From Styela clava (Eukaryota), in the NCBI RefSeq assembly GCF_964204865.1, contig NC_135259.1, positions 15,128,001 to 15,192,000 of the forward strand: 64,000 nucleotides of DNA, read 5' to 3'. Within the stretch, counting starts at the first letter, position 1. Each line of letters opens with the position of its first letter. This document shows, one piece after another, positions 545 through 63,114 of the stretch. Position numbers and translations under genes: made by a program. A model generated the notes under the pieces. The model searched no databases, was not told where the DNA came from, and saw only the letters and a list, made by a program, of their open reading frames with translations.

Positions 545-998
545 TCAGACAAACATGAAATTATCATGAACGCACATATATCCGTCAATGTCCGATATTT
601 CTACAAAAAGTTGTTTCTTCAATAAAATGACAAAAAATTATTTTAATTCAACAATATTATTATGTTACCTCGTTGTTCTGGCTGATCTACAATTGATCTT
701 TTTCGCTTTCCTTTCCACCCCGGAGTAGCCATTCTGAGCGCGAACGATCATAAATAATTTGAAAGTGGCTTTGATTTTCGGTATACCACACTTATTTATA
801 CCTCTTGCTCCGAACAAAACACCATGCAATCAACCACTCATATCTCACTTTTATTTGGAAGAGCCAGAATTTTTGAGGTTCTACATTGCCTGCCCAATTT
901 TTACACTTTGGATGGGATGGGGTCATGGAATTTGAATCCGAGATGTGTGATCTACGACGCCCACAGAGCAAAGTATAAAGCTTTAACCGCAAGGCCAT
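545..998 (-). CDS. Peptide precursor gene A (core MATPGWK-G-KRKR); exon 1 uncertain, possibly degenerate
   Basis: Exon 2 733-669 (cag|A...G|gtaac) = (R)MATPGWKGKRKRSIVDQPEQR, with family phases 2/1. Probable exon 3 600-545 = EISDIDGYMCVHDNFMFV*. Candidate exon 1 998-802 ends SKR|gtataa in phase 2 but lacks a clean signal peptide. Confidence 0.55.
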
Positions 999-1630: not shown

Positions 1631-2168
1631 ATGGCTGCGAGGATATGGATTTTCGTTTTGGCGATGTGCGTTGCAGTATTGTTAGGACCTCAAAAAGGCA
1701 AGGCAGAAGATTCATTTCCTGGACCAGAATCAAGGTAATTTACTAAAAAAATATTTTAAAATCTCCAAATGTTGATTCCTGTTTCTTAGTTTTCGAGAAA
1801 ATCCGAATCTCAATGCAATTTGAACGATTGTTTTTTTTTTTCTCAATCGGATTCATCATCCGTTGTTTCAATTGTTGATGATTTAATTAAGAATACCAGG
1901 CGGAGAAGTGCCATGGAGTGGAAAAAAGAAAAGATCTGTTAAAGATGATTTGAATGATATAGGTGAGACTTTTATTAATGTTTATGTTGTATTTTTGCTG
2001 ATACTGAAAAGAGATGCAGGAGTAGCCCAACTGCATGTGAAGCAGATACTCGCGCATACTTTTGACAGACTTTGTATATGAATTTTGCTTTAAATAAGTC
2101 ACTTTTTTTCCAAACATGTGTTTTCTGTTTCAGATATGGATATTATTCTGTTTGGTGATATTGATTAA
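1631..2168 (+). CDS. Secreted peptide precursor gene B (predicted IPGGEVPWS-amide)
   Basis: Exons 1631-1734, 1892-1962, 2134-2168 (GT-AG, phases 2/1): MAARIWIFVLAMCVAVLLGPQKGKAEDSFPGPESR|IPGGEVPWSGKKKRSVKDDLNDI|DMDIILFGDID*. AATAAA at 2325. Confidence 0.85.
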
Positions 2169-4131: not shown

Positions 4132-5073
4132 TTACTCGAGAACCTCCGCCTCTATAAAAAGAGCGATATCTGTAAGAAAAAAAGTGATACATTCAATTAA
4201 TAGTGAAGTGGAAAGAATAAGATTTTAAAATTTGTCAACATGGCAGTGCAAAATATATTCGATAAACCTAAAATAATTAGCTTACCGGCTACAATTAATC
4301 AAATTTTGTTTATAAAAAAGTAGATTTAATTTAAAATTTGTCTCTCTTTTTCTATTAATTCAATAGAATATCCAATACCATTTTAATAAATTGATATTGG
4401 AACTTTTTAGGAAGCCTGTGCACCACTGTAAATACTTAATTCCAAATTCTCAATAGTTTCCTCAATGTTTAGCATTATTGCGCAATAGAAGACTTGGGAC
4501 ACATACTATTTTTTTTAACAAAGTGGTTTATATAAAGCTTATGTGGAATTCTCCATTGCCAACAAAGCAAAAATACAATTAGATCTTCCTTTGTAAAATG
4601 ACCCAGCAGGAATGTATAAAAGTAATTTTGCACGCGCCTGAATTTTCATCATTGTCTACTGTGGATCTCCTTTTCTTTTTTCCAAGCCACGCCGGGGCTA
4701 CTGGGTGTCTAAAATGCAATTTTTTATTATTATATGAACATATTGTTGCAATATATTACATAGTTTGATTTCATTTCATCAAAAAAAATACCAGAAATTA
4801 CAAAGTTTGTCATTATGAATCATCTATTTGCTGACATCTATTGAAACCAGAAAAAGTTGAGACAAACTATGAAAACTTGAACTATAAAACTTATTTAAAA
4901 TGTGGATAGAATGCAATGTAAATTGGTTGATACTTCCCGAAAAAATCGAAAAATCACCACCTTGAATAAACTATGCCATGAACAGCCGACTCTCCATCCT
5001 TGTCATTGCAATTGGTGATGTGGATGAACATAAAGCAATAAAGTACACAGATGAAAAAAAGTTCTACTTTCAT
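4132..5073 (-). CDS. Secreted peptide precursor gene C (predicted HPVAPAWL-amide)
   Basis: Exons 5073-4961, 4708-4638 (GC donor), 4169-4132: MKVELFFICVLYCFMFIHITNCNDKDGESAVHGIVYSR|HPVAPAWLGKKKRRSTVDNDENS|DIALFIEAEVLE*. Confidence 0.82.
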
Positions 5074-7325: not shown

Positions 7326-7481
7326 TCAGAAACGCATCCAAATCCAGTCAACACATTCCTTGTCTTGTATGAAGACAAAAAACCTCATAAAAATAATTTG
7401 CCTGAAATCGACATAAATTGAACTTCTTGTGTATATTACAGTATAAATTTTTCTGAGCATCTCCAAGATTAGAAAACTAAG

Positions 7482-8225
7482 ATGAAGAATATCGCAATTT
7501 TTCTTGCTGTAGTCATGTTAGTTCTTAGCCAGGACATTTCTCCAGTTGAATGTCGGACATTGAAGATCAGTTCACCAATACGGTAAGTCAATTAGATTTC
7601 TGTTATATTTAGCTGGTTGAGTTAATGACGTTCTCCATTTCTTTGGGTCTCGGCTACTTTGAACAGTTGATATAGTTTCACAAATTATTCATTGCAAAAG
7701 GAATCCTGGGTGATAATTAATGAGATTCAAATATAAATTTTCTTCATCGAGAAATCGAAAACCCATAAAGTTTGCCATAGTTTAAGCACCATTATACCAA
7801 CCTCATCGTGTATTAAGTGATTCAGTTGAAAGTCGTTTATTTTACATTTTGCAGGTTAAGCACACAGCCACCATTCTACGCATGGGAACGGAAAAAGCGC
7901 AGTGTGGAAACTGATGTAAATTTGCAGATAAAAGGTGATGACATTTTAATTGATATTGTTAGACTTGGAAGTCTAAGTTTTATTTTAAAAAAATTCTTCA
8001 AGGCACTATTATGTAAATTTTTCGAAAGTACAAGTTATGGCTGAAAGAGTTCTCAGTTCTGATCAAGAAAATATTATGATCGTATCTCCAACGTTCAAAA
8101 TCTGAAGCTCAGCGTACTATGTCGTGGAAATCTCCATTCTCGATAATATTATCTTGTAAGTTTAAACACATTCACCTTTTGTTACAGAAAGAGAGAACAC
8201 GGTCATTGGACAAGCAAAAGGTTAA
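7482..8225 (+). CDS. Secreted peptide precursor gene D (predicted LSTQPPFYAWE)
   Basis: Exons 7482-7582, 7855-7934, 8188-8225: MKNIAIFLAVVMLVLSQDISPVECRTLKISSPIR|LSTQPPFYAWERKKRSVETDVNLQIK|ERENTVIGQAKG*. Confidence 0.87.
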
Positions 8226-9137: not shown

Positions 9138-9275
9138 AAAAGCACTCTTAGAACTCGAAGAACGACTACGTGGTATTAATAGGGTACATCTCAAATCTCC
9201 TGATGCCCCTTTTCTCGCATTTTGTATGAGCTTATATTAATTAATTGCTGGAATCGGATTTGATGAGACCTAGGG

Positions 9276-10176: not shown

Positions 10177-10994
10177 ACCTAGGGTATAGACATCGGCTTT
10201 ATAGAACTCTTAAAGATTTGTGTAATTTTTTTTTATGACTACCTCAAGAACATTATCATTTAAGACCTGACTTGCGCATAACGTCGATATAGAATCAAAT
10301 TACGGTAAGTAGATAATGAGAGATATTACTGAAAATCATGGCTACAATTCATTATGAAAATTCTTTTTATCAAATAAAAGCTGTGAGAAGAACTTCAACC
10401 CCGGATCAATATCAAATTGGAAGATAATATTTATATATAATTAAATCCATTTGAAAATGTTAATTATTGATTTTCAATCGTCCTCTTCAAAAATAAACGT
10501 AATTTATCATTTGCTTTTTATTGACAAGGCACAACATAATTTTTTTCACTTACTACTTTAAACCATGAAACAAGTATTTGTGCTAATGAGCATATTCATA
10601 ACATAGAAAATTGTTGCTTATTTACAAAGTAGCATTAAATGGCTCCATTTATATGTTTTTACCAGCAATTAATACATTTGTATCTCAAGAGATTGATTGA
10701 TTTCATATTATAAAGTTCGATGAAAAATATGACATCTTCCTAATAGGATAGCTGTAATTGCATAAATAAAAGGTCGACATTGCTGTAAATTAGTTGCAGA
10801 TGAAAGTTCAGCTGGTAAACGCAGCTTTCAGCTTAACTCATTTAAACAGGAACGATTTTCGATCGGTGTGACGACAGTCTTGTTTGAAGCAAACTCCTCA
10901 TAAAAATAAATCAACAAAAGTCAGCGTTATCTTCTCTTCATGTGTAAATTACAATTTATTTTTTTCTGAACGATCCTACGCGCTTGATACAAAG

Positions 10995-12396
10995 ATGAAG
11001 ACCGTCGCAATTTTTCTTGTTGTAGTTGTGCTGGTTAGCCTGGAAATTTCCCCAACTGACTGTCAGATATTGATGATCAGTTCACCGGTACAGGGGAGGT
11101 AAGTTTATTAGATTTCTGTTATTGAAGACGAATTGTACATATGGATTGTTTTGGTATTATGTTGTTGTTGTTCTAGTTAGTGTTTCTTTTCTTGTTGCTG
11201 TTAACTATTGGACCAATTGCTTTGAAATTTTCTACTGGTAAAAATTGTATCGTTCGCTAGAAGGCTCATTACTTTCATCTGTTTCATAAATTTCTGTAGG
11301 CTCTAAGTGATTCGTTTTTTTATGTTTGGTGAAATCATCAAAATTAAATATTGAGCACTTGTGGCAGTTCTTTGTTCGTGTTAGTAGTCAGGCGAAGTCA
11401 TTAATACTGTGGGATAGGTGGTCTACTGCGAAAGATTGCATATTCATACTACTCTGGTTTCGCCCTCGTGTACCTACATTTGAGCATTGCTCTCTTACTT
11501 TCTATAGAAGATCGGATTGAAGTTTTGAATGTTTGCACTCTATCCTCTCATGCTCTGTATTTAAACATTCGATATAATTTCACAAATTCTGAATTGTTTA
11601 TTCAGGGTGATAAATGATGATTTTCAAAAGTTTTCTTCGCCGATCGTTCGACGATGGAAATTTATCATATTTTAATTTACCATTATATATACATTACACT
11701 TTATACGAATTGATAAACTCATTCACACAAGTAGATTAATTGATATAACTTTGTTAACAAAGTACACCAGTGGTTCCAACTAGGGTTCCGAGTAACCCAA
11801 GGGTTACGCTAGTTCCGTCCAGGGATTCCACAAGTTTAAATCCAAATCCTAGAGTCTGTATGGTGTACGTATATTGTTTGTCTATAATCAATACGCGACT
11901 ATGAGATAATCATATAATAAGTGTGTTTCACTATTGTTCGGTGAAAGATCGCCAGACGTTCCGCGTCAAATCGTCGTTTCACATTTTATGATTATAAATA
12001 TAAGCATATTTAGATATAATCAATTTCACGGGAATTTCTCGAGTTTTTGAAATGTTTGTTGGTGTAAAAACACTGCTCTACATCAACTTTACGTTTTCTA
12101 TATTTCAGATATACCACACATGCACCATCTGTATGGAAACGGAAAAAGCGGAATGTCGAAAAGGATGAAAATTTGCAGACTGAAGGTGAAATATAGCAAA
12201 ATTGTTAATTAATGTTACACTTGAAAGTGAATTTATCTTTAAAAACAAATTCAAATCGAGTCAAAGCCGTGGCTTCAACATTTCAAAACCTGAAGCTCAG
12301 TATTAATCTGTGGGAAGCTTCATTCCCGTCAATGTTATCATGTAAGTTTAAACATCTCCACCTTTTATTACAGAAAGAGAGAAGGATTTATTTTGA
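10995..12396 (+). CDS. Secreted peptide precursor gene E (predicted YTTHAPSVW)
   Basis: Exons 10995-11098, 12109-12185, 12374-12396: MKTVAIFLVVVVLVSLEISPTDCQILMISSPVQGR|YTTHAPSVWKRKKRNVEKDENLQTE|EREKDLF*. Confidence 0.85.
11768..12075. mobile_element. hAT-like MITE in intron 1 of gene E
   Basis: CAGTGGTTCC...AAACACTG termini and gggttcc subterminal motifs. TSD not clean. Confidence 0.5.
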
Positions 12397-14103
12397 CACG
12401 GGTATAATGAAGTATGAAAGATCAATCGGATTCACAATGCCATGGCGGGATTTTAAATAAATGAATATAGATGGAAAAATAAAGCGTAATATTGTTTGGT
12501 TTATACAATTGGGTATTCTGAAAAATATTGAGTTTTTGTACTAGTGAAGAAATTTATGACCATGTGATATAATTGATATGATTAATTATCACCGTTGTCA
12601 GGTGATTTTGAACTTGATTTCCCACAAGTAGTAAGAAATGCTTCAGCAAGTTTGGAATTTTTTTTGCGGCCTTTGCTTACATTTCACTTCGAACATTGCT
12701 CAGCCACTGCATGAAATGTATCGCGCTAGTGTTTTCTGCAAGAACCGGAACCATTTTGGTTAGACATTTTCCACCAAATTTATTACACCTGATGAGCTTA
12801 AATCCGAAAATTTTAATCTGCAATATCAATGGAGTAGAATTCACAGCGCTCTAAGCACTAGTTCACCACGCCTATCGTTTCACCAATAATGTAAATAGTT
12901 ACTAAGAGTGGAAATGATACTTTAGCTGTAATCTTGCGATGCAGATGCCAGTAGACATCATTTTGAACAAGATTTGAAACACTATAGATGACAGGAGACA
13001 AGCCAGGAATCAGATAAACCTTCTTAAAAGACGATTACAGACATTTCAGACAATTATAGTCCGTCATAATATCTATTGCTACACTTCGAGCTATAAGTTG
13101 TTGAATCTCTGAGCTTAAATGAAATGCAATTTTTGACAAATACAATTTTGACCAAAAAGATAGAAAAGACAATGAGAATTGAACAAAAACCCTCGTGCAT
13201 TATTTTTTGTTTCACATTAGTTTTTAAACGTTTAAAGCTTCAATCCGACATCTTGAACTCATATATTAAGAATGTACATTAGTAAACGTAGTGTAGTAAA
13301 CGTTATACTTGTCAAAACTACTCATTCGTCTGCGCTTAAATTGTTGCCGTACTTGTTTTAAAATTAGTCAATGGGAGAGTATCATGGAGCAGAAGATACG
13401 TCGTTGATGGATAGAATGATATAGTTGAGATTTACTGCATTAGCGGTTGATCATATGCTTTTTTGGTTTCATTAAAGAAAAAATAGAATAAAGAATTGTT
13501 AATCTCAGCTTCCAATTTTAAAACTTAGTTATTGATAAATTTTTCACCCAAAATGTGCTTTATTTTTAGACATGAAGTCCATTATTTTTAGATGTGATTT
13601 TAAAAGTACAACAACCTTAATATTACTGTAGTTTTTTATGGCTGTACGTGATTTGAACAACAACGAATTTGGCAATAGGTCGAGGTTTTGTACAACAAAA
13701 TTTATTAGGTACAGATAAACTGTTCAGCTCAATGTTCTGTTTTGCAATAATTACATCCAACTTTACAACGCTGCACCTTCGAGATTTTGCGGTAACAAGA
13801 TTATTAAATGATGTGCCATTGCCAGAAATATATGACTTTTATAGCATTTTCTAAAATTCTCGAATTAAAAAAATAAATTTCTAATATAGTTTATTCGTCA
13901 TCACAACATAAGCACAAACATGAATACTGGAAAAGAGGAAAAAAGAACAAAATGTATGAAATATATTGTAAAAAGTCACAAATCTATTTATACAATTCCA
14001 AGTTGTAAAATTAATTAACATTTTACATAAAAAACTGAGATCGTCTTCTATTTTGAAAAGCGCACTTTTGTGACAAAGAGAAGAAAATGTTGAATGACTC
14101 TGA

Positions 14104-14818
14104 TTATTGAACATCTTCGAAAAGCTCAAAATCTGAAAAATAGGAAAATAATTTCAATTACTGGTATTATACAAAGAAAAACACTAAGCTGATTATTACT
14201 AGAAATAGAGTTTAAGCACAATGCGTGACATTTAAGCTATTATATTTTTAGATTATGCGATACTACAGGCGAAGTGTGATAAAATACATACGCCGCCACA
14301 CTCTTACAAAGAATATGATTTGCATATAAAATAGAAAATATAATTGAATTGCATTGATTAAAACGTGTGGTCCAAAACCAATGTATACCACAATATTGAA
14401 CGTGCCTGTATTTTCATCAATTTCAACTATTGATCTTCTTTTCTTTTTCCCCGCCCACCCCGGATCTGACGCCGACGGTTGTCTGAAGTGAAAAACATAA
14501 CATGTTGGCAACAAATTTATTATTTTCGTTTAAATTAGAGTGTAAAAGTGAGAAATGTGCAATAATTTATTTTCTCACTTTTTTGAATTGTTGAAGCAGT
14601 TTTACTTAACAGTTTCAATATTACATTTGTTATATATTATACAAAATATTCATTTACCTAACTTAATTGATGAAATAATTTATGTAAAAATTAAAAAATC
14701 ACCTTGACTCCGATTTACCGCTGCCAGGCTGACCCATAAAAATCATGTCCGCGCAAATAATGACTTGTACGAAAATGGAGCAATAAATGGCACACATGAG
14801 AACAAGTTTCAGATTCAT
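14104..14818 (-). CDS. Secreted peptide precursor gene F (predicted pQPSASDPGWA-amide)
   Basis: Exons 14818-14703, 14482-14406 (CAG|gcacgt GC donor), 14132-14104: MNLKLVLMCAIYCSIFVQVIICADMIFMGQPGSGKSESR|QPSASDPGWAGKKKRRSIVEIDENT|DFELFEDVQ*. Confidence 0.85.
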
Positions 14819-16209
14819 ATTTTTATATTTGACTGTTTAGGTATTATGTTGATACAAATTTATATTATAGCTAGTATGAAAAATATATCATATATAACAA
14901 ATAATCTAGAATTATGGGAAATAAAATAAACATATTCTTCTTTATTTTCATATGTTTAGTATTGTCATGCTTTTCAGTATTCACCAATAAAACATCACAA
15001 GTTGGTTATTTACCGTATACCACCGTTTGTCGCTTTGATGAGATTTATATTTAACACTTTCAACCGCTACACGTAACCACCAAAAATATTTTATTGACAA
15101 TGATCATTTGATAAATGTAAGTACACGGTTGTCAAGTGCAGCTGTGAAAGTTTGATGAGTCGTTAGTCATCAAACGGCTTCTCTAGAGTTTCCTAAAGTT
15201 ACGAAATATCTTTTTCGATTTTTAATTTTGTCATAATTTGTTGCCGCTTTTAAACTATATCGACTTATAGTGCTTACTTATTTTAACACGTTTCGCACAA
15301 ACAATACAACCTCTGGCATCTTCACTGCACCAATTGAGCATGTAGCTCAACAATCCCTAGCTCTTATATCTATAATAAATCTGTATTACATGAGCTATTG
15401 CGGCTTTGTCTGTACGGCCAAACTTTGATGAAGCATATGATACGAAGATTTTATAAAAAGGAAAGTGATCCCATATATATAGCTACTGCGCGCAAAAGAC
15501 ATCATTTCAAACGAGCTTAAATTTAAGTCGCCACGTAATTTCCAATAATTATGTGCTCAAGTGTATATCTATTATTGAGCCACAAAAGTGGATAGAACAT
15601 AATCATACACAAGGCAATCATCGACAAATCAAATTACTTTTAATCATCCAAATAGAAGAGTTTATTAATCGAACGAAGAGTTTATAAATATGATCAGAGG
15701 CATTTCAGGAATTAGGTATCGATCATTATTATCGTCAATATATGTAATTTTTGTAGGTATACTGAAATAATTAGGCCATTAGATAATTTTTGCCATTATC
15801 CAAACCCTTCTTTTTCGATTTGAGTCCTATTTGTTTTCAAACTCAAGTGGGTTTCAACTTAATTATAATTTCTAAAAAGCAAATGAGATTTAGTATTTAT
15901 TACAGAGTACTTTACAATTTGTTTAATAAGTATAGTTTTAAAAGGTTTATTCTTTAAGTGTCGCCTTATAATGAAAGTATTTTGAACATTATCAATAACA
16001 CTCCATTTATTATAAAAGAATATTTGGCAATATGAGCAGCGTATAACATTCAATCTTACATTCTATGCTTTTACATCTTGTGTGTATGAGAGCATTTTTA
16101 TTTTGAAAATACTCGTTATTGTGCGTTCAATAGTCCAGATAATTTAAAATAAGTTTGTTTTTAACAGTCTCTAATATTCAGTTGTTTCCCACATACAATC
16201 TGAGCTACA

Positions 16210-17036
16210 ATGTTCACCAATAAATGCAAAATGATGACTTTAGTGTTTGGGGCGATGCTTCTGCTGAACTTGTCATTCATTTCGGAGAAGTCATCAATGG
16301 TGGTTGCTCAATCATCAACAACAGTGAACCCAACGGGTCAAAGGAGGTAAGAAACTTTTTTCTAAAATCTAAACAAGTAATCGTAGACGATGTTGATGTA
16401 CCGAGATGATGTAACCGAACGTAATTGTTTCAAACGGAGTCTTTATCATGTATACAGGATCAACAAAACAACATGAAAGTCCTATTCCCACTATATTTCT
16501 ATTGAAAACAAGAATAGAGATAGGTAATAAACCACGATAAGCTTGTGATGATGTGTTTTAACAACCTCCGTCAACCACGTTTCGGTCAGATACATAGAAC
16601 ACTTTTATTTACTCATATTATCACAGATATTCAACCCCGTGGGGTGGAAAGAAACGATCAGTGGGGACGGACGAATTTTTCGGTAAGTTTTACGAAAACA
16701 TTCAAACCTTTTTCGTGGTTTTGTAGCAAACGAATTTACTGAAGTCCATATTTGACACACATAATGAAATAAATATAATTGTATTGGCTAAAATCAGACA
16801 GAATCCAAACGTATTTATTTGGTTAACACACACTAATGGCAATGATTGTGCTCCAAAGTAAAATAATTTTTTGAGGTTATAGATCTGGTCTCTACGTGAT
16901 ATTCCTAATTGTATTGAATTAAAATCAATCAAACATCAGCGTAAAAGTGTATTGAGTTATAAAGTTGACTAAATTATTTTTATTCCTTTTTATCTTAGAT
17001 GGCATCCAACTACTTGACGAAAACCACTTAGATTGA
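16210..17036 (+). CDS. Secreted peptide precursor gene G (predicted YSTPWG-amide)
   Basis: Exons 16210-16346, 16627-16682, 16999-17036: MFTNKCKMMTLVFGAMLLLNLSFISEKSSMVVAQSSTTVNPTGQRR|YSTPWGGKKRSVGTDEFF|DGIQLLDENHLD*. The core is flanked by RR and GKKR. Confidence 0.87.
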
Positions 17037-18157
17037 ATTAATGGATTTTCGATGATGTTACCGATATCGCCCATGCACAATATTCTATGTATCTTTACTT
17101 TATTATGAAGTATTTTTGTGTAATTGAAGAACTTGTCCATCCTGAAACTTTTGAAACCAGTTCTTTTGCATTAATTTATTGTGTTGTGTTTGTATCAATA
17201 TGTACAATTCTCTAACTCGTGTTTAAATTACATAGAATAATCACTAGAAATGCTAACAACCCGACTGTAATTTCTTCGTTATCTTGACGAATAAAACTTT
17301 TGAGAGGCAGTATAGATTACCAGCTGACATTGTAGCTTTTAAACATAATTCGAAGGAACGAATAATATATAATTAAGCCTGCAAATTAGCAGAATTGTTA
17401 AATTTAGCAGTTTTAGTCGTGTGAACTGTATTCACTAAGGTTGTAGCAAAATGCAATATAATTTAAATGTAAGGTCTACGGAATTAAAAAATATCACCGT
17501 TGGACAATCCATCCCCAACAATAGCTGCATTTTGTTCCGGATATAGCAAAGAATTAAGTGTTGTATCAACTTTTCACGTAGGCTTTCAGCTGTAATGGTG
17601 GCAGAATCTTTTGATATAAATCGGAAAAGCGCCGCACTGGAAGATTCAAATCAACCAGCGGTGATTATTTGGTGAAAAAAAAAATAAGAGAATATTTTTC
17701 AATTGGGCACTGCAAAGCGACGCCGATATTTTTCTAGTTTATTTGTTTATCATAATGTCAGTTCGCAAGAGTTTTAAACATTTCATGTTACCAATTATTT
17801 CAAAGGTTCAGTGGATTATTGTATAAAATATAAATCAAACAGAATTAAATGACACACACAAAAATACTGTATTGCTTTCAAGCTCATGCTACCGATGAGT
17901 TTCTATGGGACTAACTACTCATCGTTCTTCTAAGCTTTTGTGTCGATGGATTCGTATGCATATCACAACCTGACATTAATAATTTATCGAATACAATTTG
18001 GTGATGGAAAAGAATTAGACATAGATAAACAAGGTTTCTGTCACATCAAATGTATCGCTCTCCAGATTTAGAGATACAACAACACAAACCGTTTCAGCGG
18101 GTTGTTGTTGAGTTTTTCATGTTTGTGAGCAAGTTTAATTATTGAAACTTCCCTCTC

Positions 18158-18397
18158 TCACTTCCATTGTATAATGTATTTTTGTGCTCTGTCATTTTCT
18201 GTGGTTTTAAAGTTGGAATTTATTACTCTACCATCTAAAATGAAATATCGTGGAAAATATTTTATTATGTATATTGTATCAAATGGACTTATATATATAT
18301 AGATATTGTGATTAAACTTATCTATCTATCTATATATTGATAGTTTGCATATGTACATGCCTGTTATAAGCCAGAGCAAGAAGCAATGTAACCACAT
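18158..18397 (-). CDS. Candidate unrelated small secreted peptide H
   Basis: 18397-18361 MWLHCFLLWLIT with CAG|gcatgt, joined to 18234-18158 (tttcattttag acceptor) DGRVINSNFKTTENDRAQKYIIQWK*. TATA-like run at ~18590. No family motif. Confidence 0.25.
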
Positions 18398-19084
18398 CTT
18401 GGCCCTAATGCATCTGCGGTAGTTCTTAACTCCTCGGTCAAATTTAAAATTGAAAGAAATTGACCCAGAACAGTGGTTTTGAACGACCTTGGTGCGATGG
18501 AACCCCAATGAAACATCCCCGAGAATCTGGGAACTCTGCGCAATTTTATTTGTCGTATGCAAAAAAAAAATTAAATACTGTATGTCTGTATATATAAAAC
18601 CAAAGTCACCACTGGCTCAGAAATAACTTTGAAATTAGATATCATACTGTGATAGTTACCCTTCATTTCATGACGAACTCCTTACATCTCAACTACCTTT
18701 CCAAGTTTTACCAGCTTGGTTTTAGCTGGTTGTTTCATAAATAATCCAGGCGATCACATTCGTTTACGATCTAAATCATTATCATTCCCTATCTATTTTC
18801 GCCTTTATATCGGAAGAGTAAATCTATATTCACCAGCTTGTCAAATATTGCTTATTACATTTCTATCACTTCTCTTTGCACTTTTATTTGCGTACGCTCG
18901 ATTTTGTTTTGAGCTTTGTACACAAAGTTATTTTAAAGTATTATCTTCCTCCTAAACCAATTTTTAGAAAGCGTAAGCAACAATGATATAACAAACAAAC
19001 AAAATTAATTTATTGACAAGACACAATGTTATATGTTACACAATCATAGTTCTGTTGTATCGGGACTCCGCCGCTTTGTCCACA

Positions 19085-19787
19085 TCAATCTTCATCAAAT
19101 AAAAAGTTCTCAACTGAAAAAAAATGATCGATTTTATTTTTTTTAAAATTCTTTAGCTTGCTACTACGGCAATGCCTGGAGTTGCTGAATTCTACGCGTA
19201 ACGCTGTAGACGCAGGCAATTGAAGTAGAAAAAATATATATATATATCGTTGAATCGTACATAATTTATCATTCCCAAAAATATCTAAAATTTGTCATTT
19301 GTTAGCTCACCTTCAGCAGCAAAATCTTCTGCAATTGATCTTTTCTTGCTGCCACCCCATGGTGGACTCGGAGTACCTATTCTGTAGAATGTATTTGTCA
19401 CACATATAAAATTTTTCCAAAAAGTAATAATTCAATATAAATCAGATTAGGTCAAATGAAGCATCTTTTTACAATTTGTTGCGATGAAATACGCATTGTC
19501 CCTTTTAACTCGAAAAAAATTTGAATTGGCCAAGTGTAATCCCCAATGATATTTTAGTTAGCACTCTAAATTTGCACACTCAACATCTACTCTTCGCGAT
19601 ATCGAGCGAATTCTAAACCGAAAAGTTAATTTTATTTGGTGTTGAATGTTTGTAAAAGAGATTTTATTTATATTAGTATAAAATGTACAAACCTTCCTTG
19701 GTCAGGCGGAACTGCTTCTACACAATGATCTGAGACGACAAAAAATCCAAACATGAGCACAAAGCATAGACATGTTAACATCTTCAT
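19085..19787 (-). CDS. Secreted peptide precursor gene I (predicted IGTPSPPWGGS)
   Basis: Exons 19787-19693, 19381-19311, 19113-19085: MKMLTCLCFVLMFGFFVVSDHCVEAVPPDQGR|IGTPSPPWGGSKKRSIAEDFAAE|VENFLFDED*. Confidence 0.87.
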
Positions 19788-19874
19788 TTTGCGCAGAGTC
19801 TCATTCGCTCAAAAATAATATGATTAAAATCTAATCTGGTTCATAAAACAATTATTTTCAATAAGTACAGAATC

Positions 19875-21290
19875 AATATTTCCATAATTATTAGCAAATC
19901 ATTAGATTAGGCGACGGGTTTATGCAGTTGTCGCATAAAATAATAGAATGCAAGCATATTTGATATGCAGATTTGCTTCCAACGCAAACGGAGGTCATCT
20001 ATTTAAGAGAAGTCTGCTTAACTGCGTAACTGTTGTATTAGTGGGGTGTGGTTAGCTTAGCACTATGGTTAAATTGCATTGGAAACACAAATTAGGAGCC
20101 TCCCATATCCACCTGGCTCATATCATCTCGCGTCTGAAATGAGTATTGCAAGTATTTAGGAAAGACTGACTAAATTTATTTAAGTTTCGTACTGCAGTGA
20201 ACACTCGTTGGTTCGGTTCTTTTTGTCTATTTGCAAACAACTCGGGGCGCTATATGTAAGGGTTGCTGCTACTCACGGAATGCATATTTAGAAAAAAATA
20301 TTAAAATCGATAACATATATAAGAGATACCAATTTGTAAGTGGCACTTTAGCAATCTCTCAAGTGTTTTGCAATTTGTTCCAGAACACTTCTAAATCGAA
20401 GCCCTGTGCACGAACCGTAGTTAAATCTGGGGATCGAATTGAATGCCAATTAGAAAATTTGAAAATGTACCACATATCTGTGATGAAATTTCGGATATTG
20501 CTCAAATCGTTTTCTTCGGGGCCTGTGAAAAGTGTCCATGATTTGAGAGAAGGACAAGTTTGTTGACAACCTTTTATTTTTTGTTGTTATTCACGTTATT
20601 TAGTAATATAACTATATGATTGGCATTTCTGAATGTGATATGTGTATTTGCTGTAGGCCTATAAAACTCCAATATGTTGAATAAAGATTCAGAGCTTTAC
20701 ACAATATAATATGAATCAATAAAATGGAAACTGCCAAAATTAATATTATTGAGGTAATTGAACAGTACAACAAAAATTTATATTTTTACCAATCATTCCG
20801 TGCCGTAGCAATTTGACAAGACGGCATTGTTTCTGTATAAATTTTTGAAGTTTTAGATTAAATTAGGCAAACTACGAATTTCTTTTCCATAACATGGTTT
20901 TCGTTGTTTTTGAATTAAAATTGTTCATCACTTTACCGAAAACTTTTATTGAGATCCTAAAAAATCGTGTCAGCATGGCCTTGTTTTGGCAAGGTATATG
21001 CAGATTGTATGAGTTGAAACTCCTCAAAATGCTGACAAGTTGTTTAGTAATGCTATTGCAATGCTGTTTGCAATTATAGTTGTTTGCATTACATGGGAAA
21101 TTTGATGTGTGTACAGTGTACGGTGTAAAGCGGAAAAGGTCAATAATATATATACCGGCAAAATGCATTCATTGCGAAGTGCATATGATATATATAATAA
21201 TAACAATATTAAAAGAATATTTCAATTCCTCACGCATATACGACTACGACTAAAAGATAACGAGTCAAGTGTTCCTAGCAAAATCAAATT
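19875..21290. repeat. I/J intergenic segment, duplicated at 25282-26352 (direct) and ~26810-27165 (inverted)
   Basis: Near-identical sequence. Duplicated spurious ORFs (20872/26918, 20894/27007, 21109/26771). Confidence 0.85.
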
Positions 21291-21861
21291 TGACTCGAAT
21301 TAAAACGTTGTATCAATATCAAATCAAAGGATAATATTCAAATTTAGTTACAACCATTTGCAAATATAAATTATCGATATTCAATATTCTCCTTCATAGC
21401 GGAACGTCATTTGAGTTTTGATTTTATTTGAAAAGGCAAAATGATTGCTCTCATTTACTACTTTAAATATCAGAGTTCAGAACAAGTGTTTGTGCTAATG
21501 GACAAATTCATACTTTAAAAAATTAATGATAATCATGATTGCACGAGCAATTAAGGCCTTTATATCTGAAGAGACGGATTGATTTCATATCAAAAAGTTT
21601 GATGAAAAAATTGATCTTTTTGATGAATTCGTTTTGAGATTGCTGCAATTACCGCGATTATTTATATAATTGATCGACAATGCCGTGTATAAATCACTCC
21701 AGAAACTAATCCAACAACGCATTCCTAAAAAATTGAGCTTTCAGCTTCATTAAACCGGAAGAAATTTGGATACTTGAGAACAATCTTGTTCGGACAAAAC
21801 AATCTCATAAAAATAAATCAACTGAAGTCCAGTTTAACATTCTGACGCGTCGTAAACTAAG

Positions 21862-22780
21862 ATGAAGAATATCGCAATTTTTCTTGCTGTAGCTGTGTTA
21901 GTTCTTAGCCAGGACATTTCGTCCGTTGAATGTCGGACATTGATGATCAGTTCACCGATACAACATCGGTAAGTCTTTTAGATTTCTAATATTTTGTATA
22001 GCTGATAGAATATAAGAGTTTATAGGTTCTCCATCTCTTTATGTCTCTCCTACTTCTATCTTTTGATATATTTACAAATTCTTCATTGTATAATGGTATA
22101 CTGGGTAATAATGAGATTTAAATAAATATCTTCCTCTTCGATGAATCGAAAACACAAATTTACCTAATTACCGTTATACCAACATTATCATGGATTAAGC
22201 GATTCAATTAATTGAGTGATTAGTTGAAAGTAGTTTCTATAGCAACCTTTTGTTTTACATTTTCCAGATATAGCACAATACCACCATTCTACGCATATAT
22301 ACTGAAAAAGCGCAATGTGGAAAATGATGTGAATTTGCAGACGAGAGGTGACGACATTTTTGATTGTTGTTAGAAATTCTAAATTAATTTTTTTTTATTA
22401 AAATAAAATTTCACTGAGGTAATATAAGTTTTATTTCAGTCAAACAAGCGACGAAACGCGACCAAGTCGGATTAATAGTTTTATTTTTGCCCGAGATGCT
22501 CCCAATCTTAGTTCCAATACTTTGTGAGAGCCATACACCTATTCACTTAAGGCATCACGAGGTGAATTATTTGAAAGTGAAAGTTATGACTCGAAAAGGT
22601 CTCAGTTTTTAATCGAGAGTATCTTGAGGTTGCAGCTTCAACGTTTGAAACCTCAAGCTCAGTACTAAGTTGTAGGAATCTCCATTGTCGTGAATATTAT
22701 CTTGTAAGTTAAAACATCTCTACCTTTTTTTTACAGAAAGAGAGAACATGATCATTGGACAAGCAAAAAATGAAGTATGA
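21862..22780 (+). CDS. Secreted peptide precursor gene J (predicted YSTIPPFYAYIL)
   Basis: Exons 21862-21968, 22268-22347, 22737-22780: MKNIAIFLAVAVLVLSQDISSVECRTLMISSPIQHR|YSTIPPFYAYILKKRNVENDVNLQTR|ERENMIIGQAKNEV*. Confidence 0.87.
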
Positions 22781-24382: not shown

Positions 24383-25225
24383 ATGAAAAATATTGCAATT
24401 TTTCTTGCTGTGGTCATGTTAGTTCTTAGCCAGGACATTTCGCCCGTTGAAAGTCGGACATTGATGATCAGTTCACCGATACAAGACCGGTAAGTCTATT
24501 AGATTTCTGTTATTTTGTATAGCTGATAGAATATAAATGGTTATATGTTCTCCATCTCTTTATGCCTTGCCTACTCCTATTTTTTGATATATTACCAATT
24601 CTTCATTGTATAATGGTTACCATTATACCAACCTCATCATGGATTAAGCGATTCAGTTAATTGAGTGATTATTTGAAAGTAGTTTCCATAGCGACATATC
24701 GTTTTTCATTTTCCAGATATAGCACAATACCACCGTTCTACGCATACAAACTGAAAAAGCGCAATGTGGAAAATGATGTGAATTTGCAGACGAGAGGTGA
24801 CGACATTTTTGATTGATGTTAGAAATTCTAAATTAATTTTACTTCAAAATAAAATTTCATTGAGGTAATATAAGTTTTATTTTAGTCAAACAATCGACGA
24901 AAAGCGACCAAGTTGGATTAATAATTTCATATTTGCCCGAGATGAACCCAATCTTAGTTCCAATACTTTCTAAGAGCCATACACCTATTTCTTTGTGGCA
25001 ACACGAGGTGAATTAATTGAAAGTAAAAGTTATGACTCAAAAAGGTCTCAGTTTTGAATCGAGAGTATATTGAGCATGCAGCTTCAACGTTTAAGACCTC
25101 AAGCTCAGTACTAAGTTGTCGGAAACTCCATTATCGTGAATATTATCTTGTAAGTTAAAACATCTCTACCTTTTTTTACAGAAAGAGAGAACATGATAAT
25201 TGGACAAGCAAAAAATGAGGTATGA
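24383..25225 (+). CDS. Secreted peptide precursor gene K (predicted YSTIPPFYAYKL)
   Basis: Exons 24383-24489, 24717-24796, 25182-25225: MKNIAIFLAVVMLVLSQDISPVESRTLMISSPIQDR|YSTIPPFYAYKLKKRNVENDVNLQTR|ERENMIIGQAKNEV*. Confidence 0.87.
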
Positions 25226-27353: not shown

Positions 27354-28198
27354 TCATACTTCATTTTTTGCTTGTCCAATGATCGTGTTCTCTCTTTCTG
27401 TAAAAAAAGGTAGATATGTTTTAACTTACAAGATAATATTCACGATAATGGAGTTTCCGACAACTTAGTACTGAGCTTGAGGTCTTAAACGTTGAAGCTG
27501 CATGCTCAATATACTCTCGATTCAAAACTGAGACCTTTTTGAGTCATATCTTTTAATTTCAATTAATTCACCTCGTGTTGCCACAAAGAAATAGGTGTAT
27601 GGCTCTCAGAAAGTATTGGAACTAAGATTGGGTTCATCTCGGGCAAATATGAAATTATTAATCCAACTTGGTCGCTTTTCGTCGATTGTTTGACTAAAAT
27701 AAAACTTATATTACCTCAATGAAATTTTATTTTGAAGTAAAATTAATTTAGAATTTCTAACATCAATCAAAAATGTCGTCACCTCTCGTCTGCAAATTCA
27801 CATCATTTTCCACATTGCGCTTTTTCAGTTTGTATACGTAGAACGGTGGTATTGTGCTATATCTGGAAAATGAAAAACGATATGTCGCTATGGAAACTAC
27901 TTTCAACTAATCACTCAATTAACTGAATCGCTTAATCCATATGATGATGTTGGTATAATGGTAACCATTATACAATGAAGAATTGGTAATATATCAAAAA
28001 ATAGGAGTGGGCAAGGCATAAAGAGATGGAGAACATATAACCATTTATATTCTATCAGCTATACAAAATAACAGAAATCTAATAGACTTACCGGTCTTGT
28101 ATCGGTGAACTGATCATCAATGTCCGACTTTCAACGGGCGAAATGTCCTGGCTAAGAACTAACAAGACCACAGCAAAAAAAATTGCAATATTTTTCAT
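27354..28198 (-). CDS. Secreted peptide precursor gene L (predicted YSTIPPFYVYKL)
   Basis: Exons 28198-28092, 27862-27783, 27397-27354: MKNIAIFFAVVLLVLSQDISPVESRTLMISSPIQDR|YSTIPPFYVYKLKKRNVENDVNLQTR|ERENTIIGQAKNEV*. Confidence 0.87.
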
Positions 28199-30159: not shown

Positions 30160-31100
30160 ATGAAACATTTGACGATTCGGTGTTTTGTCTTATTGTCTTT
30201 TATGCTTCTGATGTCTTACAACATTGTTCATACTCAACTGACTACGGAAGGACCTATACAATCAAAGTATTCCATAATCGTATATCCAAGTGCAATTGCT
30301 CCGCATACTTGTTTGCGCTACTGTAAAAGTCTGAATATTGTATTTTGACACACATTTGATTTAGAACATCACAGATTGATTTGATTGCAACATGATAGAA
30401 TGAAATTATATGTGATCAATTTGATTGGCTAATAAATATATATATATAACATCGCTGATTTTTGGAGAATTTTACTATTCAAATGTCATGCAATTGTATT
30501 TAGATGATATTGCTTTTATTTTAATCCAAATTATCTTTATCAATCAAGAACTAATTACATATGTATTATTTATTTAATGTAAATATCTACATTCCAAATT
30601 GAATGTATTATATTTCCGCTATATGTAACTATAGAAAAATTTCTTTGGGGTGAAACAGCCTTCATGATAAACATAGGCCTATCCGATACGTAAGTCCAGT
30701 CAAACGAAAATTAATTGATTCTCCATCTAAATATTATTTAATTTCTCATTTATAGACAAGGCAACACCCCACCGTGGCCAGGAAAGAAGAAACGGGACGT
30801 TGGAAAATTTGATAGAATTACAGGTTTGTTACTAAAAATTGCTCAGAAGTTTGCAGAAATATGAGCAAGACCCAATATAGAAGTAAAATAACAATAAATC
30901 AAAAACGTAATATACCGCACTATTTATAGCCTTTTCAGATACCGTACCATTTACCATGTATGCTCTTTTATAACGAAAAATAATAACTCGTGTATTCAAA
31001 TACTTTCTAAAATACAAATACTTACATGATATCTTATAAAGTTTTTTCTTGTACAGATGACGAATTATTCTTTGACGACGACTCACAGATTGATCACTGA
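30160..31100 (+). CDS. Secreted peptide precursor gene M (predicted pQGNTPPWP-amide); altered first donor
   Basis: Exons 30160-30266 (AA|gtattc), 30756-30823, 31057-31100: MKHLTIRCFVLLSFMLLMSYNIVHTQLTTEGPIQSK|QGNTPPWPGKKKRDVGKFDRIT|DDELFFDDDSQIDH*. Confidence 0.72.
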
Positions 31101-32657: not shown

Positions 32658-33576
32658 TCATACTTCATTTTTTGCTTGTCCAATTATCATGTTCTCTCTT
32701 TCTGTAAAAAAAAGGTAGAGATGTTTTAACTTACAAGATAATATTCACGATAATGAAGATTCCTACAACTTAGTACTGAGCTTGAGGTTTCAAACGATGA
32801 AGCTGCAACCTCAATATACTCTCTATTAAAAACTGAGACCTTTTCGAGTCATAACTTTCACTTTCAAATAATTCACCTCGTGATGCCTTAAGGAAATAGG
32901 TGTATGGCTCTCACAAAGTATTGGAACTAAGATTGGGTGCATCTCGGGCAAAAATGAAACTATTAATCCGACTTGGTCGCTTTTCGTCGCTTGTTTGACT
33001 GAAATAAAACTTATATTACCGCAGTAAAATTTTATTTTATTAAAGAAAAATTAATTTAGAATTTCTAACAACAATCAAAAATGTCGTCACCTCTCGTCTG
33101 CAAATTCACATCATTTTCCACATTGCGCTTTTTCAGTATATATGCGTAGAATGGTGGTATTGTGCTATATCTGGAAAATGTAAAACAAAAGGTTGCTATA
33201 GAAACTACTTTCAACTAATCACTCAATTAACTGAATCGCTTAATCCATGATAATCTTGGTATAACGGTAATTAGGTAAATTTGTGTTTTCGATTCATCGA
33301 TGAGGAAGATTTTTATTTAAATCTTATTATTACCCAGTATACCATTATACAATGAAGAATTTGTAAATATATCAAAAGATAGAAGTAGGAGAGACATAAA
33401 GAGATGGAGAACCTATAACCTTTTATATTCTATCAGCTATACAAAATAATAGAAATCTGATAGACTTACCGGTCTTGTATCGGTGAACTGATCATCAATG
33501 TCCGACATTCAACGGACGAAATTTCCTGGCTAAGAACTAACACAACTACAGCAAGAAAAATTGCGATATTCTTCAT
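32658..33576 (-). CDS. Secreted peptide precursor gene N (predicted YSTIPPFYAYIL)
   Basis: Exons 33576-33470, 33170-33091, 32701-32658: MKNIAIFLAVVVLVLSQEISSVECRTLMISSPIQDR|YSTIPPFYAYILKKRNVENDVNLQTR|ERENMIIGQAKNEV*. Confidence 0.87.
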
Positions 33577-35160: not shown

Positions 35161-36059
35161 TCATACTTCATTGTTTGCTTGTCCAATGATCGTGTTCTCT
35201 CTTTCTGCAAAAAAGGTAGAAATGTTTTAACAAAATAATATTCACGATAATGGAGATTCCGACAACTTAGTACTAAGCTTGAGGTTTAGAACGTTGAAGC
35301 TGCAAGCTCAATATACTCTCGATTCAAAACTGAGACCTTTTCGAGCCATAACTTTTACTTTCAATTAATTCACCTCGTGATGCCACAAAGAAATAGGTGT
35401 ATGGCTCTCTCAAACTATTGGAACTAAGATTGGGTGCATCTCGGGCAAAAATGAAACTATTAATCGCTTTTCGTCGCTTGTTTGACTGAAATAAAACTTA
35501 TATTACCTCAGTGAAAAATTATTTTAATAAAGAAAAATTAATTTAGAACTTCTAACATCATTCAAAAATGTCGTCACCTCTAGTCTGCAAATTCACATCA
35601 TTTGCCACGTTGCGCTTTTTCAGTTTATATACGTGGAATGGTGGTATTGTGCTATATCTGAGAAATCTAAAACAAAAGGTTGCTATAGAAACTACTTTCA
35701 ACTAATAACTCAATTAACCGAATCGAATAATGATGATGTTGCTATAATGGTAATCAAGTAAATTTGTGTCTTGATTCATCGATGAAGAAGATTTTTATTT
35801 AAATCTCATTATTACCCAGTATACCATTATATCATAAAGAATTTGTGCAATTATATCAAAAGTTAGAGGTAGGCGAGGCATAAAGACATGAAGAACATAT
35901 GACCCTTCAATTCTATCAGCTATACAAAATAACAAAAATCTAATAGACTTACCGGTCTCGTATCGGTGAACTGATGATCAATGTCCGACATTCAACGGAC
36001 GAAGTGTCCTGGCTAAGAACAAACACAACTACAGCAAGAAAAATTGCGATATTCTTCAT
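35161..36059 (-). CDS. Secreted peptide precursor gene O (predicted YSTIPPFHVYKL)
   Basis: Exons 36059-35953, 35657-35578, 35204-35161: MKNIAIFLAVVVFVLSQDTSSVECRTLIISSPIRDR|YSTIPPFHVYKLKKRNVANDVNLQTR|ERENTIIGQANNEV*. Confidence 0.87.
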
Positions 36060-37885: not shown

Positions 37886-39112
37886 ATGAAACATTTGACG
37901 ATTCGGTGTTTTGTCGTATTGTCTTCTATGCTTCTAATGTCTTACAACATTGTTCATACTCAACTGACTACGGAAAGACCTATACAATCAAGGTATGAGC
38001 ATTCATTCCATAATCGTATATCGTATATCCAATCCAATATATCCAATAATCGTATATCCATGTGCAATTGCTCCGCATACCTGTTTGCGCTACTGGAAAA
38101 GTCTTAATATCGTATTTTATCACACATTTGATTTTGAACGTCATAGATTGAATTCAATGCAACATGATAGAAGGAAATTATATGTGATCAATTTGATTGG
38201 CTAATAAATACATATATATATATAACATCGTTGATTTCTGGAGAATTTTACTATTCAAAGGTCATGCGATTATATTTAGATGATATTGCATTTATTTCAA
38301 TCCAAATTATCTTTATCAATCAAGAATTAATTACATATGTAATATTTATTTAATGTAATTATCTAAATATATATTTCAAATTGAATGTATTATATTTCCG
38401 ATATATGTAACTATAGAAAAGTTTATTTGGGGTGAAACAGCCTTCATGATAAACATGTAGGCCTATCCAATACGTAAGTCCAGTCAAACGAAAATTAATT
38501 GATTCTCCATCTAAATATTTTTTAATTTCTCATTTTTAGGCTAGGCAACACCCCACCGTGGCCAGGAAAGAAGAAACGGGACGTTGGAAAATTTGATAAA
38601 ATTACAGGTTTGTTAGTAAAAATTGCTCAGAAGTTTGCAGAAATATAAGCAAGACCCAATATAAAAGTCAAATAACATCAAATCAAAAACGTAATATGCC
38701 GCACTATTTATATCATTTTTAGATACCGTACCATTTACCATGTATCCTCTTTTATAACAAAAAATAATAACTCGTGTATTCAAATACTTTTTAACATACA
38801 AACACTTACATGATATCTAATAAACTTTTTTTTTGTACAGATGACGAATTATTCTTTGACGACGACTCACAGATAAGGATGCCAAGTATGAGTACTTACA
38901 AGTATTCGATTCTTATCCGATTCCTAAATTTTCGATTCCGATTCTCGATTCCGAATCTCGATTCCTCGACATATCTTACCGAAAACACATACCCACCTAA
39001 GCAATACCATATGAAAGTAGTATGGGTATCCAATCTGCCACAGGAGACAAAATCGCACAAAAAAACAAATCCCTCAGAACCCACAGAGATTTTTAAAATA
39101 AATAAACGTTAA
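37886..39112 (+). CDS. Secreted peptide precursor gene P (predicted LGNTPPWP-amide), exon 3 extended by a MITE
   Basis: Exons 37886-37992, 38540-38607, 38841-39112: MKHLTIRCFVVLSSMLLMSYNIVHTQLTTERPIQSR|LGNTPPWPGKKKRDVGKFDKIT|DDELFFDDDSQI, then read-through into the insertion. Confidence 0.8.
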
Positions 39113-62169: not shown

Positions 62170-63114
62170 ATGAAACATTTGACGATTCGGTGTTTTGTGT
62201 TATTGTCTTTTATGCTTCTGATGTCTTACAACATTGTTCATACTCAACTGACTACGGAAGGACCTATACAATCAAGGTATGAGTATTCCATAATCATATG
62301 TCCAAGTGCAATTGCTTCGCATACTTGTTTGCGCTACTGTAAAAGTCTGAATATTGTATTTTAACACACATTTGGGTTTGAACGTCCTAGATTGAATTGA
62401 ATGCAACATGATAGAAGGAAATTATCTGTGATCAATTTGATTGGTGAATAAATATATATATAACATCGTTGATTTTTGGAGAATTTTACTATTCAAAGGT
62501 CATGCGATTGTATGCAGATGATATTGCATTATTTCAATCCAAATTATCTTTATCAATCAAGAATTGAGTACATATGTTTTATTTATTCAATGTAAATATT
62601 TAAATATTTTAAATTGAATTTATCTTATTTCTGCTATATGTAACTATGGAAAATTTCTTTGAGGTGAAACAGCTTTCATGATAAACATGTAGGCCTATCC
62701 AATACGTAAGTCCAGACAAACGAAGATTAATTGATTCTCCATCTAAATATTTTTTAATTTCTCATTTTTAGGCTAGGCAACACCCCACCGTGGCCAGGAA
62801 AGAAGAAACGGGACGTTGGAAAATTTGATAAAATAACAGGTTTGTTAGTAGAAATTAGTAAGAGTTTGCAGAAATAAAAGCAAGACCCAATATAAAAGTC
62901 AAATAACATTAAATCAAAAACGTAATATACCGCATTATTTAGAGCCTTTTCAGATATCGTACCATTTATCATGCATCCTCTCCTAAAACAAAAAATAATA
63001 ACTCGTGTATTCCAATACTTTTTAACATACAAATATTTACACGTTATCTAATAAACTTTTTTTTGTACAGATGACGAATTATTCTTTGACGACGACTCAC
63101 AGATCGATCACTGA
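62170..63114 (+). CDS. Secreted peptide precursor gene R (predicted LGNTPPWP-amide)
   Basis: Exons 62170-62276, 62772-62839, 63071-63114: MKHLTIRCFVLLSFMLLMSYNIVHTQLTTEGPIQSR|LGNTPPWPGKKKRDVGKFDKIT|DDELFFDDDSQIDH*. Confidence 0.88.

What the first reader, a model, noticed from the sequence alone, without database searches (positions are those of the whole stretch)
16210..17036. The mature peptide starts exactly at exon 2, and its N-terminal cleavage residue is built by splicing
In each gene exon 1 ends in AG| or CG| (AA| in M) and exon 2 supplies the third base, so a basic residue sits on the junction directly before the core. Gene G has QRR|YSTPWG-GKKR, a canonical dibasic site, and O has RDR|. 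This supports the junction Arg as the processing site. Inference: exon 2 is a self-contained peptide cassette that can diverge or convert independently of the secretion exon.
Basis: partly seen in the sequence, partly recalled or inferred. Interest (0 to 1): 0.7.

Follow-up and report, generated by a model that had tools for sequence, protein, structure and literature searches.

The report
Sea-squirt peptide cluster, splice-site arginine
About two dozen tandem genes, likely from a sea squirt, encode small precursors predicted to be secreted peptides; the arginine at their first splice junction is likely a by-product of the normal splice-site sequence inherited from one ancestral gene, and the second exon shows no sign of being swapped between gene types.

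Summary
The anatomy is real. Gene G has three exons (introns of phase 2, then 1), is spliced in RNA-like contigs, and reads QRR|Y. Of 24 intact cluster genes, 23 have Arg on junction 1.

A phase-2 intron in the AG|R splice consensus writes Arg, and all copies inherited one intron. Junction 2, where no cut is claimed, also ends in AG in 23 of 24. Only 2 of 24 junction arginines fit the convertase motif; O's RDR does not. A paralogue 12.7 Mb away has Ser on the junction and Arg one codon later: Arg need not be built by splicing, though it may be conserved as a residue. Cleavage there is roughly a coin toss, likelier in G.

The cassette idea fails. Exon 2 is phase-asymmetric and also carries the KKR site and tail; exons 1 and 2 group alike in 21 of 21 testable genes.

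What remains is an uncharacterised peptide-precursor family (closest records named Styela clava) beside orphan GPCR-fold genes.

The parts
16210..16346 (+). Gene G exon 1: predicted signal peptide (about 33 aa) plus a 12-residue Pro/Ser/Thr segment ending Gln-Arg and the first two bases (AG) of the junction Arg
   Evidence: spliced
16347..16626 (+). Gene G intron 1, phase 2, GT-AG
16627..16682 (+). Gene G exon 2 (56 nt): third base of Arg, core YSTPWG, Gly amide donor, KKR site, 8 tail residues; ends CG|
16683..16998 (+). Gene G intron 2, phase 1
16999..17036 (+). Gene G exon 3: acidic tail and stop
669..733 (-). Orphan exon 2 of a paralogue; homology to its intact relatives stops about 29 nt upstream and no exon 1 was found (likely pseudogene)
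1631..2168 (+). Paralogue, junction AG|A Arg, P1' Ile, amide-donor Gly; both introns spliced in contigs
4132..5073 (-). Paralogue, junction AG|A Arg, P1' His; intron 2 is GC-AG
7482..8225 (+). Paralogue (SPI subfamily), junction CG|G Arg, P1' Leu, no amide donor
10995..12396 (+). Paralogue (SPI subfamily), junction AG|A Arg
14104..14818 (-). Paralogue, junction AG|A Arg, P1' Gln; intron 2 is GC-AG
19085..19787 (-). Paralogue, junction AG|A Arg, P1' Ile
21862..22780 (+). SPI subfamily copy, CG|A Arg
24383..25225 (+). SPI subfamily copy, CG|A Arg
27354..28198 (-). SPI subfamily copy, CG|A Arg
30160..31100 (+).
32658..33576 (-). SPI subfamily copy, CG|A Arg
35161..36059 (-).
37886..38841 (+). NTPP subfamily copy (span given to the start of exon 3, whose frame runs on), AG|G Arg, basic at P6
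59429..60341 (-). SPI subfamily copy; its 76-aa product is the public record P0004 ('uncharacterized protein', Styela clava)
62170..63114 (+). NTPP subfamily copy, AG|G Arg, P1' Leu

Best explanation
The arginine on the exon 1/exon 2 junction is likely the codon that an ordinary phase-2 intron leaves when it sits in the AG|R splice consensus, likely inherited by every copy from one ancestral gene; each precursor is predicted to lose its signal peptide and be cut at the polybasic site in exon 2, and the junction Arg is likely only an optional trim point, used in G (Arg-Arg) but probably not in most paralogues, whose main product would then span both exons. Shown: exon structure, phases, junction codons, splicing of six genes, shared history of exons 1 and 2. 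Inferred: secretion, cleavage sites, amidation (Gly before the basic site in 12 of 24), a signalling role.
For: Junction 1 is AG|R in 15, CG|R in 8, AA|A in 1 of 24 genes. The control junction 2 (phase 1) ends AG| in 23 of 24 and is AG|R in 21 of 23 with an exon 3 assigned in that call; G itself has CG| there. The A of that AG is a third codon position, kept across eight different amino acids against 0.24-0.78 A-use for those codon families in five neighbouring ORFs, so splicing alone holds exon-end AG in this family. Precedent: repeated phase-2 introns in the Arg of GPCR DRY motifs, attributed to the MAG|R proto-splice site (PMC3151243, passages). The outlier paralogue has TC|G Ser at the junction. 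Convertase motif (PMC8310232, passage) fits 2 of 24; P1' is I/L/V/M in 11 of 24. The exon-1 segment resembles the core, not the tail: Pro 12% and Asp+Glu 11% versus Pro 0.4% and Asp+Glu 31% in the tail (11 lineage representatives); pN 0.090 versus 0.078 in the core, Fisher p=0.63 over 10 pairs. By my signal-peptide estimates three unlike subfamilies, G among them, give 19-residue amidated long forms, and 3 of 11 lineages start with Gln.
Against: Arg is 23 of 24 while the flanking residues cannot be aligned between subfamilies, and three single events each kept a basic residue at or beside the site: AG to CG in the SPI subfamily, Arg as the first whole codon of exon 2 in the outlier (where it does fit the motif, basic at P6), Lys in M if it splices. 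The segment before the Arg varies from 3 to 17 residues and its length does not trade off against core length (rho -0.36, p=0.28, n=11). Signal-peptide ends were set by eye and by a crude rule, not SignalP, and the two disagreed for several genes. The pN test has little power and one gene sits in two pairs. The dislike of aliphatic P1' is recalled (Devi 1991), and my searches for it found no readable source. No genome-wide frequency of Arg at phase-2 introns was computed.
Confidence: 0.5

Rival explanations
1. The junction Arg is the family-wide N-terminal processing site: a single-Arg cut releases 6-12-residue Pro/Trp peptides and the exon-1 segment is a discarded spacer.
For: Arg 23 of 24; kept through AG to CG and re-coded one codon later in the outlier, which shares S-R-H-P with the 5073 subfamily; spacer length 3-17 with Pro within P2-P6 in 21 of 24; G is dibasic; two cores start with Gln. 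Single-Arg sites occur in cionin/CCK-type precursors (recalled).
Against: Convertase motif 2 of 24, aliphatic P1' 11 of 24; spacer not acidic and as constrained as the core; between 10995 and 7482 the spacer has 4 and the core 7 non-synonymous differences; AG|R is expected from splicing alone.
Confidence: 0.38
2. These are not hormones but defence or tunic peptides that are chemically modified on Tyr/Trp/Pro, with the exon-1 segment acting as a leader removed at the Arg.
For: Cores are rich in Tyr, Trp and Pro; styelid ascidians are known for DOPA- and bromo-Trp-bearing peptides (recalled); the leader-like segment is conserved inside the SPI subfamily.
Against: Gly plus polybasic site plus acidic tail is the hormone-precursor layout; cores are short and not cationic helices like clavanin or styelin (recalled); no Pfam, PDB or atlas link to a defence family. 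Tissue of expression is unknown.
Confidence: 0.07
3. Exon 2 is a self-contained peptide cassette that is swapped or converted independently of exon 1.
For: Two orphan exon 2+3 copies lack exon 1, with the break about 29 nt before exon 2; one upstream copy has lost exon 2; conversion or recombination does occur in the cluster.
Against: Exon 2 is 3n+2 nt with phases 2 and 1 in 24 of 24, so loss or duplication shifts the frame, and the rearranged copies seen are broken. Nearest neighbours by exon 1 and by exon 2 fall in the same subfamily in 21 of 21 genes that have a close relative (24 examined; G, 19787 and the outlier are singletons); Mantel rho 0.60, p<=0.0005. Among the six closest copies exon 1 (8 informative sites), intron 1 (33) and exon 2 (4 of 5) support one grouping; the conflict lies in intron 2.
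Confidence: 0.05

Closest known systems
Phase-2 introns in Arg codons at the MAG|R proto-splice site (DRY introns of GPCRs; PMC3151243, passages)
   Same: Intron splits an AG|R or CG|N Arg codon, often followed by Tyr; both AG and CG variants occur.
   Different: There the Arg is a receptor motif residue, not a candidate cleavage site; here it is one ancestral intron multiplied by tandem duplication.
Single-copy amidated peptide precursors of the GnRH/AKH/ACP/corazonin type (PMC10321317, passages)
   Same: Signal, one short Trp-bearing peptide, Gly plus basic site, associated tail; three coding exons as in deuterostome GnRH.
   Different: First intron is phase 0 in deuterostome GnRH and corazonin genes, phase 2 here; no sequence match in Pfam, PDB or the atlas; half the members lack the amide donor; about 24 tandem copies.
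Ciona-specific neuropeptides Ci-NTLP, Ci-LF, Ci-YFV/L and their tunicate-specific GPCRs (PMC12441681, PMC6475428, passages)
   Same: Lineage-restricted ascidian peptide families with no vertebrate orthologue; some SPI cores end in Tyr-Ile-Leu like neurotensin (recalled).
   Different: Those precursors carry several peptides each; here one peptide per gene. Only one Ciona sequence (Ci-NTLP-2) was seen, and five Ciona peptides listed only by accession could not be compared.
RefSeq 'uncharacterized protein LOC120337617' and 'LOC144428314', Styela clava (P0003-P0007)
   Same: Same 76-aa precursors with the same splicing; P0004 equals the product of the gene at 60341.
   Different: No function or family is given; tandem paralogue-like variants are filed as isoforms of one locus.

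Membership tests
Proto-splice-site (MAG|R) phase-2 Arg junction | Phase-2 intron with exon-end AG (or CG) and a purine opening the next exon | tested here: met
   AG|R 15, CG|R 8 of 24
Proto-splice-site (MAG|R) phase-2 Arg junction | Same bases kept at a junction where they code no Arg | tested here: met
   Junction 2: AG| 23 of 24, third-position A across eight amino acids
Convertase-processed secreted peptide precursor | N-terminal signal peptide | tested here: inconclusive
   Hydrophobic stretch and (-3,-1) small residues by a crude rule; SignalP not available
Convertase-processed secreted peptide precursor | Di- or polybasic site after the peptide | tested here: met
   Three or more K/R ending in Arg in 24 of 24; Gly before it in 12 of 24
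Convertase-processed secreted peptide precursor | (K/R)-Xn-R, n=0,2,4,6, at the junction Arg | tested here: not met
   2 of 24 (G, 37886); O has n=1; the outlier fits with n=4
Convertase-processed secreted peptide precursor | Mature peptide detected; neural or endocrine expression | not testable with these tools
   Only contigs of coded RNA-like runs, tissue unknown
GnRH/AKH/ACP/corazonin superfamily | First intron phase 0 in deuterostomes | tested here: not met
   Phase 2 in 24 of 24
GnRH/AKH/ACP/corazonin superfamily | Peptide directly after the signal peptide | tested here: inconclusive
   True only if the Arg is not cut; Gln first in 3 of 11 lineages by rule
GnRH/AKH/ACP/corazonin superfamily | Sequence or profile match | tested here: not met
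   No Pfam, PDB or atlas support
GnRH/AKH/ACP/corazonin superfamily | Activates a GnRH/CRZ-type receptor | not testable with these tools
   Needs a receptor assay
Leucokinin-type peptides (motif F-X-X-W-G-amide, recalled) | C-terminal F-X-X-W-G-amide | tested here: not met
   0 of 24 cores; G has Ser at that place, 7482 has F-X-X-W but ends in Glu without an amide donor
Exon-shuffling cassette | Symmetric intron phases | tested here: not met
   Phases 2 and 1, lengths 3n+2
Exon-shuffling cassette | Exon equals the module | tested here: not met
   Exon 2 also holds the basic site and 8-11 tail residues
Exon-shuffling cassette | History incongruent with exon 1 | tested here: not met
   21 of 21 concordant; conflict only in intron 2

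The most novel reading that the evidence does not exclude
An undescribed array of about 24 peptide ligands and the orphan GPCR-fold subclade next to it (five intact copies starting 16 kb away, one broken copy among them and one broken copy inside the array) form a co-expanding ligand-receptor locus of this ascidian, with the junction Arg switching each ligand between a long and a short form.
Probability: 0.1. Interest if true: 0.75.

Novelty: new member of a known kind. Interest (0 to 1): 0.33.

Why it matters
The splice-junction Arg is a caution, not a mechanism: at phase-2 introns the splice consensus writes Arg, so it cannot count as evidence of a processing site or of a peptide cassette. 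The lasting value is the family itself: about 24 single-peptide precursor genes in a 100-kb array, transcribed and spliced where checked, annotated only as uncharacterised, in the sister group of vertebrates. It gives a short list of masses for peptidomics (long versus short forms) and a short list of neighbouring orphan receptors to test.

Tried and rejected
Homologue searches: G exon 1 found nothing among 24-79-aa proteins; the exon-1 profile found one cluster only, all five members named Styela clava; the exon-2 profile against 1.84 billion representatives gave one hit, a fungal repeat protein matching on W-x-K-x-KKR-S-V-D-D, rejected as chance. No Pfam family, no PDB sequence, atlas scores 0.85 or lower and discordant. 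Genome-wide motif scans gave one true paralogue outside the cluster; the other hits I opened (5, 12) lacked the exon structure, and three listed places (C1:8.36 Mb, C18:5.52 Mb and most repeat copies on C14) were not opened. One protein search of G000 with an SPI exon 2 found only the 9 cluster copies. GnRH/corazonin rejected on intron phase; leucokinin on motif. Length trade-off between spacer and core: not significant. RNA: no holder is on record as RNA; the four runs laid are guessed RNA from one study, so depth and tissue say nothing. Splicing of gene M and of genes beyond base 20000 was not checked against reads. No peptide gene of this family was seen in 60 kb around the closest off-cluster receptor paralogue, and one search lists no receptor match near the outlier peptide gene; both weigh against the ligand-receptor idea. 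No complex prediction was run: the peptides are under 30 residues. Literature: ten searches listed no paper on this family; none used the peptide sequences as terms. Supplements listing Ciona peptides were not readable as text, so a Ciona homologue is not excluded. Earlier scan notes: none relevant.

Full report
What is there. Gene G lies at 16210-17036 on the + strand with three coding exons, intron 1 in phase 2 and intron 2 in phase 1, and gives a 76-residue precursor: hydrophobic N-terminus, a short Pro/Ser/Thr segment, QRR|Y at junction 1, a Gly-Lys-Lys-Arg site and an acidic tail. Scanning the window and 200 kb of flanking G000 sequence found 29 related loci over about 100 kb. I counted the 24 that have a start codon, an exon 1 and an exon 2 (16 in the window, 8 in the flanks). 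I dropped five broken ones: two orphan exon 2+3 copies, one without a start codon, one with a frameshift and lost acceptor, one without exon 2. The closest public records are uncharacterised proteins named Styela clava, one identical to the gene at 60341, so the organism is very likely that ascidian.

The observation. Junction 1 is AG|R in 15, CG|R in 8 and AA|A in 1 of 24 genes, so 23 code Arg. Contigs of four RNA-like runs (one study, RNA status guessed) show intron 1 joined out for six genes in bases 1-20000, G in three of the four runs; 15 of 31 joints were displayed. M's AA| is the remnant of a 6-nt deletion that removed the donor present in its paralogues; whether it splices is open.

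Is it more than chance? The copies share one ancestral intron, so they are one observation, not 24. A phase-2 intron in the MAG|R consensus splits an Arg codon; passages of PMC3151243 describe this for GPCR DRY motifs, CG variants included. The family offers its own control. At junction 2, where no cut is claimed, exon 2 ends in AG in 23 of 24 genes, and G has CG there. That A is a third codon position in codons for eight different amino acids, where neighbouring ORFs use A only 24-78% of the time. Splicing is enough to hold these bases. A paralogue at G000:C13 about 2.41 Mb has the same exons, phases, W-S-G-KKKR site and tail, but TC|G (Ser) on the junction, with Arg as the next codon. So the Arg need not be built by splicing. 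The same gene cuts the other way too: it suggests that an Arg is wanted at this place in the protein, as do the AG-to-CG change in one subfamily and the Lys in M. These are three single events.

Is the Arg the cleavage site? The convertase motif (K/R)-Xn-(K/R), n=0,2,4,6 (PMC8310232, passage) fits 2 of 24: G and 37886. O's R-D-R has n=1. Ile, Leu, Val or Met follows the Arg in 11 of 24, which I recall as unfavourable for monobasic cuts; I could not source that rule. The exon-1 segment is Pro-rich and not acidic, like the core and unlike the tail, and it changes no faster than the core (pN 0.090 versus 0.078, p=0.63). By my estimated signal ends, three unlike subfamilies give 19-residue amidated long forms. 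Against that, the segment varies from 3 to 17 residues, shows no significant length trade-off with the core, and my signal ends are crude. I put family-wide cleavage at about 0.4, and cleavage in G itself at about 0.65.

Is exon 2 a cassette? It is 56-80 nt, always 3n+2, bounded by phases 2 and 1, and carries the basic site and 8-11 tail residues as well as the core. Nearest neighbours by exon 1 and by exon 2 are in the same subfamily for all 21 genes with a close relative among the 24 examined; G, 19787 and the outlier are singletons and cannot be tested; Mantel rho is 0.60 (that set omits one cluster gene without an assigned exon 3 and adds the outlier). Among the six closest copies, exon 1, intron 1 and four of five informative sites in exon 2 give one grouping; six sites in intron 2 contradict it, so exchange happens but its edge falls after the peptide, not before it. 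Rearrangements that did part exon 2 from exon 1 left broken copies.

Comparison with known families. The layout works like a single-copy amidated peptide precursor. It is not filed under GnRH/corazonin: those genes have a phase-0 first intron in deuterostomes (PMC10321317, passages) and no profile matches. Ciona-specific peptides come several to a precursor (PMC12441681, PMC6475428, passages); their sequence tables were not readable. PMC4772807 (passages) gave only general criteria. No relative outside the Styela records was found, but the queries are short and these searches are weak for small peptides. Ten paper searches listed nothing on this family; that is thin evidence of absence.

Neighbours. 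Single-exon membrane genes begin 16 kb past the array; one folds as seven helices (pLDDT 76.5) and matches class A GPCRs at TM 0.4-0.55. Six of the seven best non-self matches in the genome are local, two of them broken, one inside the array; but the family has at least 119 matches genome-wide, and neither the closest off-cluster receptor nor the outlier peptide gene shows the pairing. Linkage is a lead only.

Verdict. Observation largely right; junction Arg explained by a known splice-site bias; processing there undecided; cassette not supported. The family is an uncharacterised new member of a known kind. Interest 0.33.

Noticed in passing
G000:C13 2410122-2409578, minus strand (L022/L023): Lone paralogue 12.7 Mb from the cluster, 70 aa, same exon phases, Ser on the junction and Arg one codon later.
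   Followed up: yes
G000:C13 15224021-15248047 (L009-L011) and 15112762-15113664 (L004): Subclade of orphan single-exon GPCR-fold genes next to the array (five intact, one broken) and a broken copy inside it; family has at least 119 matches in the genome.
   Followed up: partly
G000:C13 about 15110730-15111350 (L004): SPI-type copy with exon 1 and exon 3 but no exon 2 and little of intron 1; splicing would shift the frame.
   Followed up: yes
window 669-733 and G000:C13 about 15116900 (L004): Two orphan exon 2+3 copies head to head with the 1631-type genes; the upstream one also has a stop in the core.
   Followed up: yes
window 4638 and 14406: Intron 2 uses a GC donor in this subfamily; both joints are seen in the RNA-like contigs.
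   Followed up: partly
window 21289-36900 and 59100-63400: Large recent inverted and direct duplications (up to 98% identical); RefSeq lists near-identical variants as isoforms of one locus.
   Followed up: partly
window 44542-46328: Broken hAT/SPIN-type transposase (Pfam Dimer_Tnp_hAT above cut-off, Spin-doc zinc finger below).
   Followed up: partly
window 49376-58389: SENP/Ulp1 protease frames (51145-52141, Pfam Peptidase_C48) inside a long inverted duplication that interrupts the peptide array.
   Followed up: partly
G000:C3 23921415 and 23933489 (L029, L030): Two similar signal-peptide exons with a phase-0 donor beside the closest off-cluster receptor paralogue; another small secreted family, not the one studied.
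   Followed up: no
G000:C14 19441000-19519000 (L038): At least 14 tandem GC-rich repeat units 2.4-3.3 kb apart, with related copies on C1 and C17; identity not tested.
   Followed up: no
G000:C13 15102316-15103773 (L003): Single-exon UBR-box gene (Pfam zf-UBR) just upstream of the array; a synteny marker for finding the cluster in other ascidians.
   Followed up: partly
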